64,000 bases of DNA from an uncultured Candidatus Saccharibacteria bacterium (GTDB lineage: Bacteria > Patescibacteriota > Minisyncoccia > Phycocordibacterales > CAIRYW01). A program made the translations under genes and the position numbers. The notes under the pieces were generated by a model. That model saw only the letters and a list, made by a program, of their open reading frames with translations, was not told the origin of the DNA and ran no database searches. Positions within the stretch are counted from its first letter, which is position 1. Each line of letters starts with the position of its first letter. Positions 23,743 to 54,402 of the stretch are shown here, one piece after another. Where the stretch lies: assembly GCA_964386665.1 (NCBI GenBank), contig CAYLQP010000001.1, forward strand, positions 48,111-112,110, written 5' to 3'.

Positions 23743-24354
23743 CTAGTCTGCTTTAGGACTCTTTTTCCCATTCAGAAACTCAAAGATCGCGAGGTCGTAG
23801 CTGCTGGTACGCTCGAACACGTGGATTGCGAGGCGCTCGCGGGTTTCAAACTTCGTTGCGCCACCGTTCGACCGCATTTCTTCGAGTACCACGGCGTAGT
23901 CCGCAGGGTCCGTGACGATGGTCACGGACTGGTAGTTTTTTGACGCAGCACGTAGCATGGCCGGACCACCGACATCAATGTTCTCAATCGCATCCTCCAG
24001 TGTCACGCCATCCTTCGCCACGGTCTGCTCGAAGGGATAGAGGTTTACAATGAGCAGATCAATCGGCAGTACGTCGTGCTCCTTAGCCTGCTCCACGTGT
24101 TGGGCGTTTTCCCGCTGATAGAGTAAGCCGCCATGGACCTTCGGGTGCAGGGTCTTCACCCGACCGTCGAAACATTCTGGGTAGCCGGTGAAATCCGCTA
24201 CTTCGATCACTGGAATACCCAGCTTCCGTATAAATGCCGCGCTGCCGCCCGTGGAGATGATTTCTACTCCCATTGCGTGCAGTCCTTGTACCAAGGTTTC
24301 CAGCCCGTTCTTGTTTGATACCGATATGAGTGCTCGCGTGATTTTTGGGTCCAT
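23743..24354 (-). CDS. purH: stand-alone IMP cyclohydrolase (PurH N-terminal MGS-like domain only), GC-anomalous
   Basis: Strong match to the PurH N-domain (ALISVSNKNGL..STGGSAAFIRKLGIPVIEVADFTGYPECFDGRVKTLHPKVHGGLL..NLYPFEQTV..IENIDVGGPAMLRAASKNY). No AICAR transformylase domain follows. The coding body is about 58% GC against about 38% for its neighbours. The ATG at 24354 (MDPKIT) is preferred over the track start at 24441. Confidence 0.75.
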   Translation of the reverse strand: MDPKITRALISVSNKNGLETLVQGLHAMGVEIISTGGSAAFIRKLGIPVIEVADFTGYPECFDGRVKTLHPKVHGGLLYQRENAQHVEQAKEHDVLPIDLLIVNLYPFEQTVAKDGVTLEDAIENIDVGGPAMLRAASKNYQSVTIVTDPADYAVVLEEMRSNGGATKFETRERLAIHVFERTSSYDLAIFEFLNGKKSPKAD

Positions 24355-24435
24355 TTTCAGGATGTGTTTGATTTGAAGTTTCCCTAACAGATGTGAAAGG
24401 GCGACTATTCCACACATTAACAAATCAGATTTTTT

Positions 24436-24466
24436 TTGCAACTTTTTGAAAAAGGTATGATATAAT
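24436..24466 (+). promoter_or_regulatory. candidate sigma-70 promoter for gap (TTGCAA -35, extended TGaTATAAT -10)
   Basis: TATAAT at 24461-24466 with TG at 24458-24459. The ATG follows at 24475. Confidence 0.35.
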
Positions 24467-48554: not shown

Positions 48555-48701
48555 TTTTTTGAAAAATTAATAATAATACGCCTATAAAAAGGCTTTTGGC
48601 AATTCTACCAAAATATCAATTTATTACAAGTTATAAGCCTATTGACTTATTTTATTAGTATGCTACTATCTTGTTAGTTTTTTGCAATTTGCTTGCTGGT
48701 A

Positions 48702-50514: not shown

Positions 50515-50543
50515 TTGACGATATATATTGCATATGTTATAAT
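50515..50543 (+). promoter_or_regulatory. near-consensus sigma-70 promoter TTGACG-N17-TATAAT inside the island
   Basis: -35 at 50515-50520 and -10 at 50538-50543, upstream of the 50593 ORF. Confidence 0.5.
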
Positions 50544-50592
50544 GTTTTCTAGATAGATTGTGATGTATGTCATCACCCAATCTGTTTCGTAA

Positions 50593-50943
50593 GTGCTCAA
50601 TGAAGCGCTGGCAGACGGGGTGTCACATACACCACTCCATATGGTCTTTACAGATCCAACAGGTGTCGAACTACCTAAACTGTTCGAGCTTGGCACGGTC
50701 AGGGTTCTCTCAGGGGTCTCTGAAACATTGTCGCAAGAAGAAGTAAAAGAGGTTCTTGCCCAACATCAGTCGGGCGACTGGGGATACCTTTGCCCGGAAG
50801 ATAAGGTGGCAAATGATCTCGCTCTCCAAGAAGAAGGGCAATTGCGCTCGATCTACTACGGGAACGGAGGCACTACCAGGCTCCAAATCATCACCGAGGC
50901 GGATCGATCGGTAACGACCGTTCTTCTCCCGGAGGAATACTGA
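50593..50943 (+). CDS. hypothetical protein (GC-rich island)
   Basis: 116-aa ORF at about 52% GC. It has a conserved-looking C-terminus (ITEADRSVTTVLLPEEY), but I cannot place it in a named family. Confidence 0.5.
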   Translation: MLNEALADGVSHTPLHMVFTDPTGVELPKLFELGTVRVLSGVSETLSQEEVKEVLAQHQSGDWGYLCPEDKVANDLALQEEGQLRSIYYGNGGTTRLQIITEADRSVTTVLLPEEY

Positions 50944-50947
50944 TGCC

Positions 50948-51328
50948 ATGAAGAACCTCGATATCAGCCAGTTGGTGTTGATCGGAAGCGTTGTCTTACT
51001 CTTCCTCGTGATGCTCATCAGGACGAGCATTGAGGCATGGAGAAACAGGAAGACTCCCGCACACAAAGCAGCTCTGCGCAGGCAGAGACAAATCAGACGG
51101 GAGATGCTCGCCAAGCAAGAAGAGCAAATCGCTCAGGAAATGGAAGAGCGGCTCAAAAAGAGCCGCCGGCAAGAGCAGGTAGCACCTCCTCCTGTCACAC
51201 GACCTCCTGATTCTCACGAACTCCTCAGAGAGATTCATCGTCAGGTCCTGGAAGCAGGAATTCGACGGATGTCTCAAAGAAGATCTACCGAGGAAGTTGG
51301 TCGTCGGTTCAAACCGGGTAACTCATAG
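50948..51328 (+). CDS. hypothetical membrane-anchored protein with Arg/Gln/Glu-rich charged region (GC-rich island)
   Basis: 126 aa. One N-terminal TM helix followed by a highly charged helix and a Pro-rich stretch. A hairpin plus T-run terminator follows at ~51340-51375. Confidence 0.45.
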   Translation: MKNLDISQLVLIGSVVLLFLVMLIRTSIEAWRNRKTPAHKAALRRQRQIRREMLAKQEEQIAQEMEERLKKSRRQEQVAPPPVTRPPDSHELLREIHRQVLEAGIRRMSQRRSTEEVGRRFKPGNS

Positions 51329-51402
51329 AGCGATCTGAATAACTACAGCCGTTTCTCCATTCGTGGGGGAACGGTTTTTTAATTTAAAATTTTAAGAAAG
51401 GA

Positions 51403-51425
51403 GTCCAACCCTTGGTTGGGGTTTT
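51403..51425. repeat. direct repeat copy 2 (GTCCAACCCTTGGTTGGGGTTTT), right boundary of the GC-rich island
   Basis: 22/23 identity with 50141-50164. Confidence 0.6.
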
Positions 51426-51473
51426 AAAAAACTGAATTTGTTTTTTCTCTTAAAAATCTGTAATATGTTGCCT

Positions 51474-52166
51474 ATGTTTGCAGTTATATTAGCAGCAGGG
51501 AAAGGAACACGAATGGGGGAACTCTCAAAGGAGACTCCGAAGCCAATGCTTCCGGTGCTTGGGAAGACGCTTTTGGAGCACAAGCTCGATATGTTACCAG
51601 AACAAATTACTGATGTGATTATTGTGGTTGGATACTTAAAAGACAAAATCGTGGAAGTGTTGGGAGACAACTATGGAGGAAGAAAGATTTCTTATGTGAT
51701 CCAAGAAGAACTGAGAGGAACAGCAGATGCGTTGTTTAAATGCAAAGACATACTCAAAGATGAGAAAAAGTTTCTTGTAATGATGGGAGATGATATTTAT
51801 TGCAAAGAAGATATGGAAGAATGTTTGCAATATGATTATTCTATCTTGATCCGTGAGACAGCGAGTCTGAAAGGTAAGGCAAAGGTAATGTTTGATGAGA
51901 GTGGGCATATAAAAGATATTTTAGAAAAGTATCCTACAGAGGAAGCGGGTTTTATTTGTACAGGATTATATACTATTTCTTCAAAAATTTTTGAATATCA
52001 AATGGTGGGTATTCCAGGGGGAGAAGTTGGGTTGCCACAAACGCTTCTTTCAATGAAAAAGGACTTCAATATAAAAGCTGTTCAATCGAGGTTTTGGCTC
52101 CAAATCACTGCTCCAGAAGATTTGGTGATGGCGGAGACGTTTTTGAAGATTGATAAAACAGAGTAG
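51474..52166 (+). CDS. sugar-phosphate nucleotidyltransferase (NTP_transferase family, G1P thymidylyl/uridylyltransferase-like)
   Basis: MFAVILAAGKGTRM N-terminus and DDIY/GTADAL blocks. The track ORF starts at a TTG (51438). The ATGs at 51465 and 51474 are both preceded by a TAATAT -10-like element. Confidence 0.75.
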   Translation: MFAVILAAGKGTRMGELSKETPKPMLPVLGKTLLEHKLDMLPEQITDVIIVVGYLKDKIVEVLGDNYGGRKISYVIQEELRGTADALFKCKDILKDEKKFLVMMGDDIYCKEDMEECLQYDYSILIRETASLKGKAKVMFDESGHIKDILEKYPTEEAGFICTGLYTISSKIFEYQMVGIPGGEVGLPQTLLSMKKDFNIKAVQSRFWLQITAPEDLVMAETFLKIDKTE

Positions 52167-52444
52167 GGAGTAAAGATAAAAGACTAAAAACCAAAGAGGA
52201 GAAGGGGAAAGCGCGCAGGACCAAAGGCCCTGCGCGCTTGAAAATGGTCTGAGAGAGAGGGTGCTGAACAGAGTTATGTGGTTCAAGCACTGGATCACGC
52301 GACTGCGGAGTTGTTATGACCCCTCTCGTCTCTCAGCCATCTGCCGACAACACCTGGCTTCTTCACGGTGCTGAGTATTGAGGGCAGAAAAGAAAAATCT
52401 AAAATAATTTTATTGTTTTTGTATTAAAAGTCAAATCTGTACAA

Positions 52445-52680
52445 AACTGAAAGGTCCCCGCAAGCTGCGCTTGCGGGGACCTTGAAATATTCACCTGAGA
52501 GAGCTGTGCTAGGAGCAAGTTCGCACAGCCTTCAACTTTATCCTGTGTGTCTGGGTCCGCCAGACTTACGGATAAGGGTTTAGGCACTCTCTCAGGCTTA
52601 TTTTGGCCACTACGGAGAAGGTCCAGGAATCCTTCGGGTTCATCCTGGGCATTGTGTGGCGCAAATCAAAGAAATTGACT
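52445..52680 (-). ncRNA. candidate structured ncRNA, paralog 1 (own promoter TTGACT-N16-TAATAT at 52687-52714; terminator hairpin 52453-52479)
   Basis: GC-rich (~55%) and ORF-free. A 10-bp closing helix (cctgagagag/ctctctcagg) encloses internal hairpins. The 5' leader and 3' terminator are conserved with paralog 2, while the core differs. Confidence 0.5.
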
Positions 52681-52725
52681 GACCCTCATATTACTCACAA
52701 TCCTCTTGAAGTCAAATCTGTACAA

Positions 52726-52989
52726 AACTGAAAAGTCCCCCGCAAGCGCAGCTTGCGGGGGACTTTGAAATACCGACCTGGAGGGGTAGCAAGGTGTAGG
52801 GGCACCGAGTAAGGTTCTACACCTCCTCTGACCAACTGTGTGCTCCAGTTGTCCGCGGGACCACAGGTGGTCGTTAAGGGATGCTTCCCTCCAGGTAGTT
52901 TTGCTCACATGTGGCGCAGTTCCAAGTCCGAAGTAGTGTGTGTAACAGCCTTGGAGAACATACGTGAGACAAATCAAAGAAATTGACTG
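52726..52989 (-). ncRNA. candidate structured ncRNA, paralog 2 (promoter TTGACT-N16-TAATAT at 52996-53023 overlapping the cysS stop; terminator hairpin 52734-52762)
   Basis: Same architecture as paralog 1. Its closing helix is acctggaggg/ccctccaggt, which covaries with paralog 1's helix at the equivalent position. Confidence 0.5.
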
Positions 52990-53019
52990 ACTCCCATATT
53001 ACTTATAATCCTCTTGAAG

Positions 53020-54402
53020 TCAAATCTTCGTCACTACTTGTTCATCTCCTTGGTCTTTGACTTCAAAACCTTGCTCACGAATAAGAGTTCGTAGATGGTC
53101 TGATGTGTGGAAGTCTTTTTTATCTCGAGCTTCTTTTCTTTGGTGAAGGAGCATTGTCACTTCTGCTGGGACATTTACTTTTTCTACAACCACTTGTTCA
53201 AGTCCAAATCCAAAGACACTATCCATTCGAAGAAGTGTCGCTTTTTTGTCTTCATTGGTTATGTTGGTGTCTTTGATAAGTTCCCAAAGGAGCACAAGTG
53301 CCTTTGGAGTGTCTAAGTCGTCATTTACCGCTTGATCAAACTTTTCGATATAGTCGAAATGGATACTTCCAGAAGTTGTAGTGAGAAGTAGGAAATGATC
53401 TCGCAGTTTGCGCCACGCTGTTTCACTCGCTTGAAGTGCAATAAGTGAATAATCCACTCGAGTTGAATATCTGCTTTGTAAATACCACATTCGTACTCCC
53501 ATCGGACTGATTCCTTGTGTGTATATATAATCAAGAGACAAGAAGTTTTCGCCGGACTTTGCCATCTTTTCGCCTGTGATAGTGATATGGTTATTATGAA
53601 CCCAGTATCGTGCAAGTATCTTGTCTGTTGCTGCCTTACTCTGAGCTATTTCGTTGTTGTGGTGAACTGGAATATGGTCAATACCACCTGTGTGGATATC
53701 AAACTCACTTCCAAGATACTTCATACTCATAGCTGAGCATTCGATATGCCATCCTGGAAATCCGCATCCAAATGGTGCATCAAATCCAAGACCTTCTTTA
53801 TCTGCAAATTTCCAAAGCGCGAAATCTTCAGGGTTGTGTTTTTCGGGATTGATACCGATTCGTGAATGATCGGTATTTGCAGTCATTCCTCCAAGGATGC
53901 CGTATTCAGGATCTTTTGAAGTATCGAAGTAGAGCCCATCACCTGTTTTGTACACAAACCCTTTTTGATCGAGAGTTTTTATCAGTTCTATCTGGTCAGC
54001 TATGTGTTCACTTGCAAAGGTAAACTTGGTAGGCAACACACAGTTAAGTAAAAGAAAATCTTTTTTAAATGCTTCAAAATATGTCTTTGAAACTTCTTTA
54101 AGAGACTCAAGTGACATTTCTTTGCCTTCACGTTTGATTGCTTTGACCATCTTGTCTTCACCGTCATCTGCATCACTTGTGAGATGTCCAATATCGGTCA
54201 CATTGATAATATGTGTGACATCGAACCCATTGTAGAGAAGTACACGTTTGAGTGTATCAGCGAAAAAGTACGCACGAAGGTTTCCGATATGGGCAAAATT
54301 GTAGACCGTTGGTCCACAGGTATACATTGTCACTTTGTGTGCAACAAGAGGGGTAAATATTTCTTTTGTTTTGTGTAAGGTGTTAAAAAGTTTTATGTCC
54401 AT
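53020..54402 (-). CDS. cysS: cysteine--tRNA ligase
   Basis: HIGH-type motif (CGPTVYNFAHIGN), KMAKSG (the KMSKS equivalent), and Zn-binding Cys residues. Confidence 0.93.
   Translation of the reverse strand: MDIKLFNTLHKTKEIFTPLVAHKVTMYTCGPTVYNFAHIGNLRAYFFADTLKRVLLYNGFDVTHIINVTDIGHLTSDADDGEDKMVKAIKREGKEMSLESLKEVSKTYFEAFKKDFLLLNCVLPTKFTFASEHIADQIELIKTLDQKGFVYKTGDGLYFDTSKDPEYGILGGMTANTDHSRIGINPEKHNPEDFALWKFADKEGLGFDAPFGCGFPGWHIECSAMSMKYLGSEFDIHTGGIDHIPVHHNNEIAQSKAATDKILARYWVHNNHITITGEKMAKSGENFLSLDYIYTQGISPMGVRMWYLQSRYSTRVDYSLIALQASETAWRKLRDHFLLLTTTSGSIHFDYIEKFDQAVNDDLDTPKALVLLWELIKDTNITNEDKKATLLRMDSVFGFGLEQVVVEKVNVPAEVTMLLHQRKEARDKKDFHTSDHLRTLIREQGFEVKDQGDEQVVTKI

What the first reader, a model, noticed from the sequence alone, without database searches (positions are those of the whole stretch)
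52427..53027. Two tandem, paralogous, highly structured GC-rich ncRNA genes downstream of cysS, with covarying helices
This ~600-bp ORF-free, GC-rich (~55%) segment holds two ~290-bp units on the minus strand. Each has a near-consensus promoter (TTGACT-N16-TAATAT), a conserved ~25-nt 5' leader (GGGUCAGUCAAUUUCUUUGAUUUG...), a unit-specific ~170-195-nt core, and an identical GC hairpin plus U-run terminator (gtcccc(c)gcaagc...gcttgcgggg(g)ac). The cores differ in sequence, but both are closed by a 10-bp helix at the same position. That helix covaries between units (acctgAGAGAG/CTCTCTcagg versus acctgGAGGGG/CCCTCCaggt), and both cores contain internal hairpins. I could not match them to RNase P, tmRNA, SRP, 6S or retron msr/msd. 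The architecture (conserved ends, variable structured core, independent promoter and terminator) resembles duplicated regulatory or guide-like RNAs. It may be an undescribed RNA family.
Basis: seen in the sequence. Interest (0 to 1): 0.8.

Follow-up and report, generated by a model that had tools for sequence, protein, structure and literature searches.

The report
Three tandem structured small-RNA genes
Just downstream of the cysteinyl-tRNA synthetase gene of an uncultured Paceibacteria (candidate phyla radiation) bacterium lie three, not two, tandem genes for highly folded ~200-270-nt non-coding RNAs that match no described RNA family, recur in only a few related genomes, and have no known function.

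Summary
On the minus strand between cysS (53020-54402) and a convergent NTP-transferase gene (51438-52166) there are three promoter-to-terminator units, not two: A (~52990-52728), B (~52682-52447) and C (~52400-52200). A and B share a 22-nt leader found nowhere else in the window. All three fold far better than shuffles. Nothing matches Rfam 15. The window is chromosomal DNA of a Paceibacterota bacterium.

Relatives with 65-70% identical CysS carry one RNA at the same site. It has the same 15-nt motif AAUUUC(U/A)UUGAUUUG, then a hairpin P1, a helix-closed multi-branch domain P2 and a terminator. Their cores are unalignable. Other relatives have unrelated structured RNAs there, or none; the closest one (88% CysS) has none.

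A and B are diverged paralogs. Flanks are 85-93% identical and cores 57%. All 39 core pairs are kept, 11 by compensatory double changes.

I read this as a new, lineage-specific, copy-number-variable family of independently transcribed structured sRNAs. The mechanism is inferred only. The conserved single-stranded U-rich 5' motif is the likely functional handle (seed or protein site), and the GC-rich body a structure-constrained scaffold. No target, partner or expression data were obtainable.

The parts
53020..54402 (-). cysS (cysteinyl-tRNA synthetase, 460 aa). Its TGA stop codon lies inside the -35 hexamer of unit A, and no terminator separates it from unit A, so unit A is probably also the cysS 3' UTR.
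   Evidence: Pfam tRNA-synt_1e on the identical protein. Homologues are named cysteine--tRNA ligase of Paceibacterota. Sequence. No terminator-like site lies between 53020 and 52770.
52996..53023 (-). Promoter-like site of unit A: TTGACT-N16-TAATAT.
   Evidence: The same placement, with TTGAC(A/T) at or overlapping the cysS stop, is seen in L263 and L265, and directly after the stop in L011 and L012.
52728..52990 (-). Unit A RNA, ~260 nt. The start is estimated from the -10 hexamer and the end from the U-run. Layout: leader, P1 hairpin (52972..52901), P2 multi-branch domain (about 52899..52772), terminator.
   Evidence: Fold -112.2 kcal/mol, z -6.80. Core without terminator z -2.9.
52970..52991 (-). 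Leader of unit A, GUCAGUCAAUUUCUUUGAUUUG. The 15 nt at 52984..52970 form the motif conserved in other genomes. Its last UUUG pairs with CAAA to extend P1.
52887..52896 (-). 5' arm of the P2 closing helix of unit A (ACCUGGAGGG).
   Evidence: Sequence; fold; covariation with unit B and relatives.
52776..52785 (-). 3' arm of the P2 closing helix of unit A (CCCUCCAGGU).
   Evidence: Sequence; fold.
52732..52766 (-). Intrinsic terminator of unit A: 16-bp stem, 10 GC pairs, loop UGC, U-run.
   Evidence: I3.
52688..52715 (-). Promoter-like site of unit B: TTGACT-N16-TAATAT.
52447..52682 (-). Unit B RNA, ~235 nt. Layout: leader (52683..52662), P1 (52660..52606), P2 domain closed by CCUGAGAGAG (52596..52587) pairing with CUCUCUCAGG (52503..52494), terminator.
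   Evidence: Fold -99.5 kcal/mol, z -6.58. I25. Core z -3.3.
52451..52483 (-). Intrinsic terminator of unit B: 15-bp stem, loop GCA.
   Evidence: I5.
52407..52434 (-). Promoter-like site of unit C: TTGACT-N16-TAAAAT. It shares the AGATTTGACTT junction with units A and B.
   Evidence: D2; sequence.
52200..52400 (-). Layout: degenerate U-rich leader (AUUUUUCUUUUCUG), P1 (52388..52340), P2 domain (52339..52245) closed by GGCUGAGAGA.../...UCUCUCAGACC, and a terminator (52239..52209) of the GCGCGC type also found in L011 and L014. That terminator is probably bidirectional with the convergent gene.
   Evidence: Fold -83.7 kcal/mol, z -5.81. Core z -3.6. Aligns with the family and scores 125.9 bits in the model it helped to build. 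I10.
51438..52166 (+). Convergent NTP-transferase (sugar-phosphate nucleotidyltransferase) gene. It is the other conserved flank of the RNA locus.
   Evidence: Pfam NTP_transferase 2.3e-24. The synteny cysS -> <- NTP-transferase holds in all relatives examined.

Best explanation
The locus holds three tandem, independently transcribed genes for structured small non-coding RNAs. They belong to a previously undescribed family specific to one lineage of Paceibacteria.

Each RNA starts a few bases downstream of a sigma-70-type promoter placed at the end of cysS. Its parts, in order, are:
- a short single-stranded U-rich 5' motif (AAUUUC(U/A)UUGAUUUG, degenerate in unit C);
- a long hairpin, P1;
- a Y-shaped, GC-rich domain, P2, closed by a purine/pyrimidine helix (GAGAG/CUCUC type);
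- an intrinsic terminator.

The array arose by tandem duplication. The bodies then diverged quickly under selection for structure only, while the flanks stayed nearly identical, through constraint or gene conversion.

Most likely mode of action (inferred, not shown): a trans-acting riboregulator. The conserved unpaired 5' motif would be the specificity element, either a base-pairing seed or the binding site of a protein partner. The very stable body and terminator would give the RNA a long life and possibly a platform for a protein. Because cysS has no terminator of its own, unit A would also serve as the cysS 3' UTR and terminator.
For: Shown:
- Promoter, leader and terminator are repeated three times.
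- Folding is strongly non-random for all units and for relatives' RNAs. Whole units have z -5.2 to -8.2. Cores without terminators have z -2.9 to -6.6, and the promoter-defined strand folds better than the opposite strand in 7 of 8.
- There is no Rfam match, no conserved ORF and no tRNA or tmRNA.
- L011 and L014 carry the same 15-nt motif (15/15 and 14/15) at the same distance from a TTGAC(A/T)-N17-TAGTAT promoter, and the same P1/P2/terminator layout. Their CysS proteins are only 65-70% identical and their cores align no better than shuffles.
- On a structure-blind MAFFT alignment of five RNAs, P1 and P2 are 81.9% paired versus 71.0% in shuffles (0/500). Ten pairs carry double changes versus 5.0 in shuffles. 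Slid controls are 40-60% paired.
- A versus B: 39 core pairs are 100% kept, with 11 compensatory double changes. Slid controls give 1-2 double changes and 32-48% paired.
- The motif UUUC[A/U]UU lies 10-12 nt after the -10 in 6 of the 9 RNAs at this locus. Among the other 10 strong promoter-like sites scanned it occurs once.

Inferred from established knowledge: in tandem sRNA paralogs such as OmrA/OmrB, the conserved 5' end is the seed and the middle diverges.
Against: - Transcription is not demonstrated.
- No target was found. The best leader-to-translation-start duplex among 59 window genes (-14.1 kcal/mol) is no better than for shuffled leaders (-14.7 +/- 2.0).
- The last four bases of the motif are probably paired in P1.
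- A 200-270-nt, heavily structured, covarying body is more than a seed sRNA needs. That hints at a protein or other partner.
- Distribution is patchy. The closest relative with this region assembled (L136, CysS 88%) has no RNA at all, so the function is dispensable.
- Only five full-length family members could be collected, so the covariation statistics are weak. They also lean towards the structure, because it was derived from the same alignments.
Confidence: 0.4

Rival explanations
1. Protein-binding or protein-sequestering RNAs, in the manner of 6S, CsrB/Rsm or Y RNA. The folded body would be the functional part. The U-rich 5' motif next to a hairpin would be a protein site (Sm/Hfq-like) or an RNase entry or processing site.
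For: - The body is under structural selection: compensatory changes between A and B and the same layout in relatives despite random-level sequence identity.
- Architecture conserved without sequence conservation is typical of 6S-like RNAs (own knowledge).
- The motif resembles AU-rich Sm/Hfq sites such as AAUUUUUG next to a stem (own knowledge).
- Multiple tandem copies suit a dosage or sponge role.
Against: - There is no rod with a central bubble. The folds show two separate domains.
- No Rfam 6S, Ms1, CsrB or Y RNA hit appears even at E<=10.
- The cores share no loop or junction motif above chance.
- No candidate partner gene is adjacent. The neighbours are cysS, an NTP-transferase and unannotatable ORFs.
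Confidence: 0.2
2. The conserved leader is a boxA-like Nus-factor loading site, as upstream of rRNA operons and CRISPR arrays. It would protect the untranslated structured transcripts from Rho, or chaperone their folding, and might allow read-through along the array.
For: - The core UUCUUUGA equals the middle of the Gram-positive type boxA UGUUCUUUGAAAA. This is recalled from the literature and was not checked here.
- BoxA elements are known upstream of untranslated RNAs other than rRNA, and their consensus drifts between phyla (PMC7665894, read).
- The motif is promoter-proximal, single-stranded and followed by a hairpin, like a nut site.
Against: - L014 has a U-to-A change in the CUUU core. 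Unit C and L265 have only a loose U-rich version.
- Each unit ends in a very strong intrinsic terminator, which Nus/boxA complexes do not override efficiently (own knowledge).
- A 250-nt folded RNA offers Rho little to load on.
- The rRNA leader of this lineage could not be obtained for comparison.
Confidence: 0.1
3. No dedicated RNA function. The segment would be fast-turnover intergenic material, either palindromic or MITE-like insertions or recombination debris, at a hotspot between two convergent genes. It would supply terminators and happen to carry promoter-like sequences.
For: - Presence, absence and copy number vary (0, 1, 2 or 3) among relatives.
- Unrelated structured sequences occupy the same gap in L012 and L263.
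- Three relatives' contigs break exactly at this point.
- The closing helices look like terminal inverted repeats.
- A second GC-rich insertion lies next door.
Against: - There are no target-site duplications around P2 (sequence).
- No other copy of any core or of the leader occurs in 64 kb or in relatives' loci.
- Near-consensus promoters stand at a conserved position in six genomes.
- A 15-nt motif and a 37-nt terminator are conserved far above the flanking genes.
- Compensatory evolution is seen in A versus B.
Confidence: 0.12
4. A cassette-type locus. A conserved expression frame (promoter, U-rich leader, terminator) would carry interchangeable or hypervariable structured RNA bodies. These bodies would diversify under conflict, for example as decoys or specificity RNAs aimed at phages or at the host of this episymbiont.
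For: - The mosaic pattern is seen twice. A versus B: flanks 85-93% identical, core 57%. L011 versus L014: leader 14/15 and terminator 36/37 identical, cores at random level, although CysS is 65% identical.
- Different bodies sit at the same promoter position in L012 and L263.
- Distribution is patchy.
Against: - The A and B cores are still weakly homologous and structurally collinear, so ordinary divergence plus constraint or gene conversion on the flanks is enough.
- At 65% CysS identity, unconstrained sequence is expected to be randomised anyway.
- No recombinase, reverse transcriptase or nuclease lies nearby.
- The cores match nothing in the window, phage or plasmid collections.
Confidence: 0.1

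Closest known systems
OmrA/OmrB-type tandem sRNA paralogs (Enterobacteria)
   Same: Adjacent, same-strand duplicates, each with its own promoter and intrinsic terminator. The 5' end and terminator region are nearly identical and the middle has diverged. In OmrA/B the conserved 5' end is the base-pairing seed (own knowledge).
   Different: OmrA/B are ~80-90 nt with a loosely structured middle, are Hfq-dependent and have known targets. Here the RNAs are 200-270 nt with a GC-rich, covarying two-domain body. The conserved motif starts a few bases in and is partly paired. No target or chaperone is known, and there is no sequence relation.
3'-UTR-derived sRNAs with their own promoter at the end of the upstream gene (for example MicL, DapZ)
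   Same: The promoter overlaps the last codons and stop of the upstream CDS (the cysS TGA lies inside TTGACT). The sRNA and the mRNA would share the terminator.
   Different: Those sRNAs are short and single. Here there is a tandem array. The upstream gene's relatives often lack any such 3' region, with a 7-nt gap or overlapping genes in L136 and L137.
6S RNA / Ms1 class (RNA-polymerase-binding RNAs)
   Same: About 200-300 nt, own promoter, abundant secondary structure, architecture conserved while sequence is not, and sometimes two paralogs per genome.
   Different: The defining rod with a large central bubble is not predicted. No Rfam 6S or Ms1 hit was found. The RNA is dispensable and patchily distributed, unlike 6S.
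boxA/nut leaders of rRNA operons and CRISPR arrays
   Same: A short conserved U-rich motif near the 5' end of an untranslated transcript, followed by a hairpin (PMC7665894).
   Different: The motif deviates from known boxA sequences and varies at a core position in L014. The transcripts are short and end at strong intrinsic terminators. No link to Nus factors could be tested.
Candidate structured RNA motifs from comparative genomics (Rfam 'Gene; sRNA' families of unknown function)
   Same: Intergenic, with promoter and terminator, conserved helices with compensatory changes, function unknown.
   Different: None of the 4227 Rfam 15 models matches. The family here is known from only five full-length sequences in three genomes plus a partial.

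Membership tests
Any described RNA family (Rfam 15: RNase P, tmRNA, SRP, 6S, Ms1, Y RNA, riboswitches, ribozymes, OLE/GOLLD/ROOL/HEARO/raiA and others) | Covariance-model score at or above the family's gathering threshold. | tested here: not met
   There were 0 matches in the whole window. At E<=10 over 51300-53400 only terminator-driven sub-threshold hits appeared, such as His_leader at 26 bits versus 49. There was nothing on the relatives' RNAs. ARAGORN found no tRNA or tmRNA.
6S RNA | The 5' and 3' ends pair into a long rod interrupted by a large central bubble. | tested here: not met
   MFE and centroid folds of A, B, C, L011 and L014 give a single-stranded 5' motif plus two independent domains, P1 and P2.
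Tandem seed-type sRNA paralogs (OmrA/B-like) | Adjacent paralogs with conserved 5' and 3' ends and a divergent middle. | tested here: met
   The 5' block is 54/58 identical, the 3' block 85% and the core 57%.
Tandem seed-type sRNA paralogs (OmrA/B-like) | The conserved 5' segment base-pairs with conserved mRNA targets. | tested here: inconclusive
   Only 59 translation-start regions of the window could be scanned. The best duplex, -14.1 kcal/mol, is no better than for shuffled leaders. The rest of the genome was not available.
Tandem seed-type sRNA paralogs (OmrA/B-like) | Dependence on an RNA chaperone (Hfq or ProQ). | not testable with these tools
   The complete genome is not available. No such gene was seen among the window proteins scanned.
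boxA / Nus-factor antitermination leader | The motif matches the boxA found upstream of the rRNA genes of the same organism. | not testable with these tools
   There is no rRNA in the window, and the public-collection scans were exhausted. Resemblance to the Gram-positive boxA rests on memory. L014 varies in the core.
MITE / palindromic repeat element | Terminal inverted repeats with target-site duplication, and multiple similar copies in the genome. | tested here: not met
   The closing helices could be inverted repeats, but no duplication flanks them. No second copy of any core occurs in 64 kb or in relatives. The whole genome was not available.
Type I toxin-antitoxin mRNA | A small, conserved, usually hydrophobic ORF with a ribosome-binding site inside a structured ~200-300-nt RNA. 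| tested here: not met
   No ORF is conserved in position or sequence among A, B, C, L011 and L014, on either strand.
Retron msr/msd, DGR template, CRISPR/TIGR or transposon guide RNAs | An adjacent reverse transcriptase, Cas/Tas, TnpB, IscB or IS110 gene; short repeat-spacer units or a variable guide next to a conserved scaffold. | tested here: not met
   The neighbours are cysS, an NTP-transferase, the ATP synthase operon and an ABC exporter. Here the conserved part is the 5' motif and the variable part is the folded scaffold, which is the opposite of guide RNAs. The cores are not complementary to anything in the window.
rRNA-derived fragment or pseudogene | Significant local similarity to 16S, 23S or 5S rRNA. 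| tested here: not met
   Smith-Waterman scores against the E. coli rrnH operon fall within the shuffle distribution for all units but one. L011 versus 23S scored 29 against a shuffle maximum of 28, one of 16 comparisons, which is the level expected by chance. The leader has no special complementarity to rRNA.

The most novel reading that the evidence does not exclude
The cysS/NTP-transferase gap of this Paceibacteria clade may be a cassette-like hotspot. A conserved expression frame (promoter at the cysS stop, U-rich leader, terminator) would carry structured RNA bodies that are exchanged or diversify unusually fast. That would make it an RNA-level variable locus, for example decoy or specificity RNAs used in conflict with phages or in the interaction with the host cell of this episymbiont.
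Probability: 0.1. Interest if true: 0.8.

Novelty: new member of a known kind. Interest (0 to 1): 0.45.

Why it matters
Patescibacteria (CPR) make up a large share of bacterial diversity. They have tiny genomes, and my literature searches found no described regulatory RNAs for them.

A genome this small nevertheless devotes ~800 bp to three strongly promoted, structure-constrained RNAs. That suggests an RNA function that matters to the organism, even though close relatives do without it.

If the family is real and expressed, it gives a first handle on riboregulation, or RNA-protein biology, in this phylum. The unusual split between an invariant 15-nt motif and a free-running structured body would be a useful case for how sRNA families evolve. 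As it stands it is a well-supported candidate family with unknown function, not a mechanistic discovery.

Tried and rejected
- **Known RNA families.** Rfam at gathering and at permissive thresholds on the window and on relatives found nothing. ARAGORN found nothing.
- **rRNA fragments or mimics.** By eye, unit B seemed to share short strings with 16S rRNA. Local alignment against the E. coli rrn operon versus shuffles showed chance level. Leader-to-rRNA duplexes were also at chance.
- **Hidden protein-coding or type I toxin genes.** No conserved small ORF was found.
- **Guide-like or antisense cores.** blastn-short of all RNAs against the masked window and relatives gave only chance-level matches of 13 nt or less.
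- **Seed targets.** Leader versus 59 translation-start regions was not better than shuffled leaders.
- **Shared motifs in the cores.** A k-mer search across five RNAs gave chance level.
- **Mobile-element or phage origin.** There was no similarity in the phage or plasmid collections; a single 27-nt chance hit was found. The neighbouring GC-rich ORFs have no PADLOC, PHROG or NCBIfam hits.
- **Public-collection scans with the leader.** The genome-contig scan (20-mer) returned 7 unrelated chance hits. One viral scan gave only coding hits.
- **Own covariance model (R1).** It found only its training sequences in the window and 15 related loci. L012, L263 and L265 were not detected.
- **Other GC-rich islands as possible RNAs.** 23743-24441 is a protein gene with MGS/AICARFT domains. 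50593-51328 holds two ORFs.
Full report
**What is in the sequence.** Reading the minus strand from the end of the 460-aa ORF at 53020-54402 shows three consecutive units with the same layout.
- Unit A has the promoter-like site TTGACT-N16-TAATAT at 53023..52996. Unit B has the same site at 52715..52688.
- A and B share an identical 22-nt leader, GTCAGTCAATTTCTTTGATTTG. It occurs only twice in the 64-kb window, against 0.00 matches expected by chance. No further copy with up to 3 mismatches lies in a non-coding context.
- Each unit ends in a long GC hairpin with a U-run: 52766..52732, 52483..52451 and 52239..52209.
- The repeat analysis gives start-to-start spacings of 308 and 281 nt. It finds a 58-nt promoter-plus-leader block at 93% identity and a 32-nt post-terminator block at 97%.
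- The junction AGATTTGACTT is present three times, so unit C begins with the same -35 context as A and B.
- GC of the reported segment is 49%, against 38.8% for the window and not ~55%.
- The cysS stop codon TGA lies inside the -35 hexamer of unit A. No terminator separates cysS from unit A.

**Is it structured RNA rather than chance or coding?**
- Whole units fold with z = -6.80 (A), -6.58 (B) and -5.81 (C) against dinucleotide shuffles.
- With the terminators removed, the cores still give z = -2.9, -3.3 and -3.6.
- Over the eight RNAs found at this locus in all genomes, the promoter-defined strand folds better than its complement in seven.
- No small ORF is conserved in position or sequence among the units or their relatives.
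- No Rfam 15 family reaches its threshold anywhere in the window. At E<=10 only terminator-driven sub-threshold hits appear. ARAGORN finds no tRNA or tmRNA.

**Where the window comes from.** The ORF is CysS, and its best database relatives are annotated as Candidatus Paceibacterota, Patescibacteria or Taylorbacteria. The window carries rpoB/rpoC, dnaG, rpoD, ribonucleotide reductase, gatB, uvrA/uvrC and the ATP synthase operon. It is therefore ordinary chromosome of a CPR bacterium. Two Logan contigs with an identical CysS are sequence-identical across the array and add no variation.

**Relatives.** The arrangement cysS -> <- NTP-transferase is conserved. What lies between the two genes differs.
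- **L011 and L014.** CysS is 67-68% identical to the window and 65% to each other. Each has one RNA behind a TTGAC(A/T)-N17-TAGTAT promoter. Each carries AATTTCTTTGATTTG or AATTTCATTGATTTG at the same distance from the -10. Then come a long hairpin, a multi-branch domain closed by a GAGAG/CUCUC-type helix, and a GCGCGC-type terminator like that of unit C (z -6.7 and -8.2).
- **L265.** This contig ends early. It shows a looser version of the motif, GUUUUUUCAUUUUGAGUG, behind a promoter whose -35 again contains the cysS stop codon.
- **L012 and L263.** These carry one and two promoter-driven structured RNAs at the same place (z -4.5 to -6.0 for the cores). They lack the motif, have no detectable similarity to the family and get no hit with my covariance model.
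- **No RNA at all.** L010 has an 84-nt gap, L136 a 7-nt gap, and in L137-L140 the genes overlap. L136 is the closest relative, with CysS 88% identical. The distribution is therefore patchy and the RNA is dispensable.
- **Contig breaks.** Three relatives' contigs (L135, L141, L262) break right after the NTP-transferase gene. For L135 the break falls exactly where the unit C terminator hairpin would begin, consistent with a hard-to-assemble hairpin or a repeat.

**Conservation pattern.** Across genomes only the 15-nt motif and the terminator are conserved. L011 and L014 share 14/15 of the motif and 36/37 of the terminator. Their cores align at 49%, equal to shuffles (49.5 +/- 1.6). No k-mer motif is shared by the five cores above chance.

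Within the window, A and B are diverged paralogs. The 5' block is 54/58 identical and the 3' block 85%. The cores are 57% identical against 50.1 +/- 1.8 for shuffles, so they are weakly but detectably homologous and collinear.

**Structure conservation.**
- A structure-blind MAFFT alignment of A, B, C, L011 and L014 lets RNAalifold recover three helices: the P1 stem, which includes UUUG of the motif paired to CAAA; the P2 closing helix; and the terminator.
- For P1 and P2, 81.9% of cells are paired against 71.0 +/- 3.1% in column shuffles (0/500). Ten pairs carry changes on both sides against 5.0 +/- 1.4. Sliding the partner by 1-3 columns gives 40-60% paired.
- For A versus B, 39 core pairs in seven helices are paired in both sequences. 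Eleven carry compensatory double substitutions. Slid controls give 1-2 such pairs and 32-48% pairing.
- These structures were derived from the same alignments and the samples are tiny. I take this as good support for selection on structure, not as proof.

**What it is.** This is a new, narrow family of independently transcribed, structure-constrained small RNAs, present here as a three-gene tandem array produced by duplication. The statement that it is a set of ncRNA genes rests on the following:
- repeated promoter and terminator signals;
- the promoter's conserved position in six genomes;
- non-random folding on the correct strand;
- absence of coding potential;
- compensatory evolution.

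**How it may work (inference).** The only sequence held constant across genomes is the unpaired U-rich 5' motif. It sits at a fixed 10-12 nt after the -10 in six of the nine RNAs at this locus, and only once among the other ten strong promoter-like sites scanned. The simplest model is a trans-acting riboregulator. The motif would be its specificity element, either a seed or a protein site. The GC-rich body would need only to be a stable two-domain fold.

I could not find a target. Leader duplexes with the 59 translation-start regions of the window are no better than those of shuffled leaders. The cores are not complementary to anything in the window.

Rivals:
- a protein-sequestering RNA;
- a boxA-like Nus-factor site. 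BoxA elements do occur upstream of untranslated RNAs, and their consensus drifts (PMC7665894). The motif varies at a core position in L014, and the rRNA leader of this lineage was out of reach;
- functionless hotspot or MITE-like DNA. No target-site duplication and no other copies were found;
- a cassette-like variable RNA locus.

**Ideas tested and dropped.** These were rRNA-derived fragments, type I toxins, retron, DGR, CRISPR or transposon guide RNAs (no associated genes), and phage or plasmid origin. The single genome-collection scan, the single metagenome scan and one viral scan with leader patterns returned only chance or coding matches and exhausted the caps for the two large collections. 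The homologue set is therefore limited to what synteny look-ups could supply.

**Verdict.** Its interpretation as an undescribed family of paralogous structured RNAs is supported. The function is unknown and the proposed mechanism is a best guess. This is a solid candidate for a new sRNA family in a phylum where my literature searches found none described. It is of moderate interest until expression and a wider alignment are available.

Noticed in passing
window 50515-51376 (+ strand): A GC-rich (52-57%) two-ORF cassette (50593-50943, 116 aa; 50948-51328, 126 aa, with a transmembrane N-terminus). It has its own near-consensus promoter (TTGACG-N17-TATAAT with TG, 50515-50543) and terminator (51347-51376). 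In the close relative L135 the ATP synthase gene1 sits directly next to the NTP-transferase gene, so this looks like a ~1.3-kb insertion adjacent to the RNA array. Pfam, NCBIfam, PADLOC and PHROGs gave no meaningful hits.
   Followed up: partly
window 23743-24441 (- strand): The most GC-rich stretch of the window (54-59% versus 38.8%) is a 232-aa ORF with an MGS-like domain and the N-terminal part of the AICARFT/IMPCHase (PurH) domain. This is probably a horizontally acquired or truncated purH-like gene, not an RNA.
   Followed up: partly
window 1-64000: There is no tRNA, tmRNA or any Rfam family at gathering score in 64 kb of chromosome.
   Followed up: yes
window 53018-53023; L263 1303-1308; L265 1514-1519: In three genomes the cysS stop codon TGA is embedded in the -35 hexamer TTGAC(A/T) of the downstream RNA promoter (...AAG ATT TGA C...). 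In L136, which lacks the RNA, the stop is TAA.
   Followed up: partly
window 52732-52766 versus 52451-52483: The terminator hairpins of units A and B are inverted copies of each other in the loop (UGC versus GCA; arms 88% complementary between units). This suggests the palindrome was flipped, or copied from the opposite strand, during duplication.
   Followed up: no
L011 6622-6656 versus L014 3889-3924: A 36/37-nt identical GC hairpin terminator (AAAGCGCGCAAACC(C)TCCGGTTTGCGCGCTTTCAAC) is shared by two genomes whose flanking CysS proteins are only 65% identical. Unit C has the same stem base. This conservation is far above that of the surrounding DNA and is unexplained.
   Followed up: partly
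L135 2293-2304: The JGI contig ends in CTCTTCCGATCT, an Illumina adapter remnant, exactly where the unit C-type terminator hairpin would begin. L141 and L262 also break shortly after the NTP-transferase gene.
   Followed up: no
window 48642-48669 (+ strand); L135 59-86: A strong promoter-like site (TTGACT-N16-TACTAT) lies on the strand opposite to the ATP synthase operon, in the atpB-atpF gap. A weaker counterpart (same -35, non-consensus -10) sits at the matching place in the relative L135. It may drive an antisense or small transcript.
   Followed up: no
L012 3988-4262 (+); L263 1278-1130 and 1068-880 (-): Unrelated, strongly structured, promoter-driven RNAs occupy the same cysS/NTP-transferase gap in other relatives (core z -4.5 to -6.0). 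Each is closed by a long terminal helix (GACGACUUUGG/CCAAAGUCGUC; GUGUGGGCAG/CUGCCCACAC; GUGUGUGUGGUGG/CCACCACACAC). They have no Rfam match and no similarity to the family described here.
   Followed up: partly
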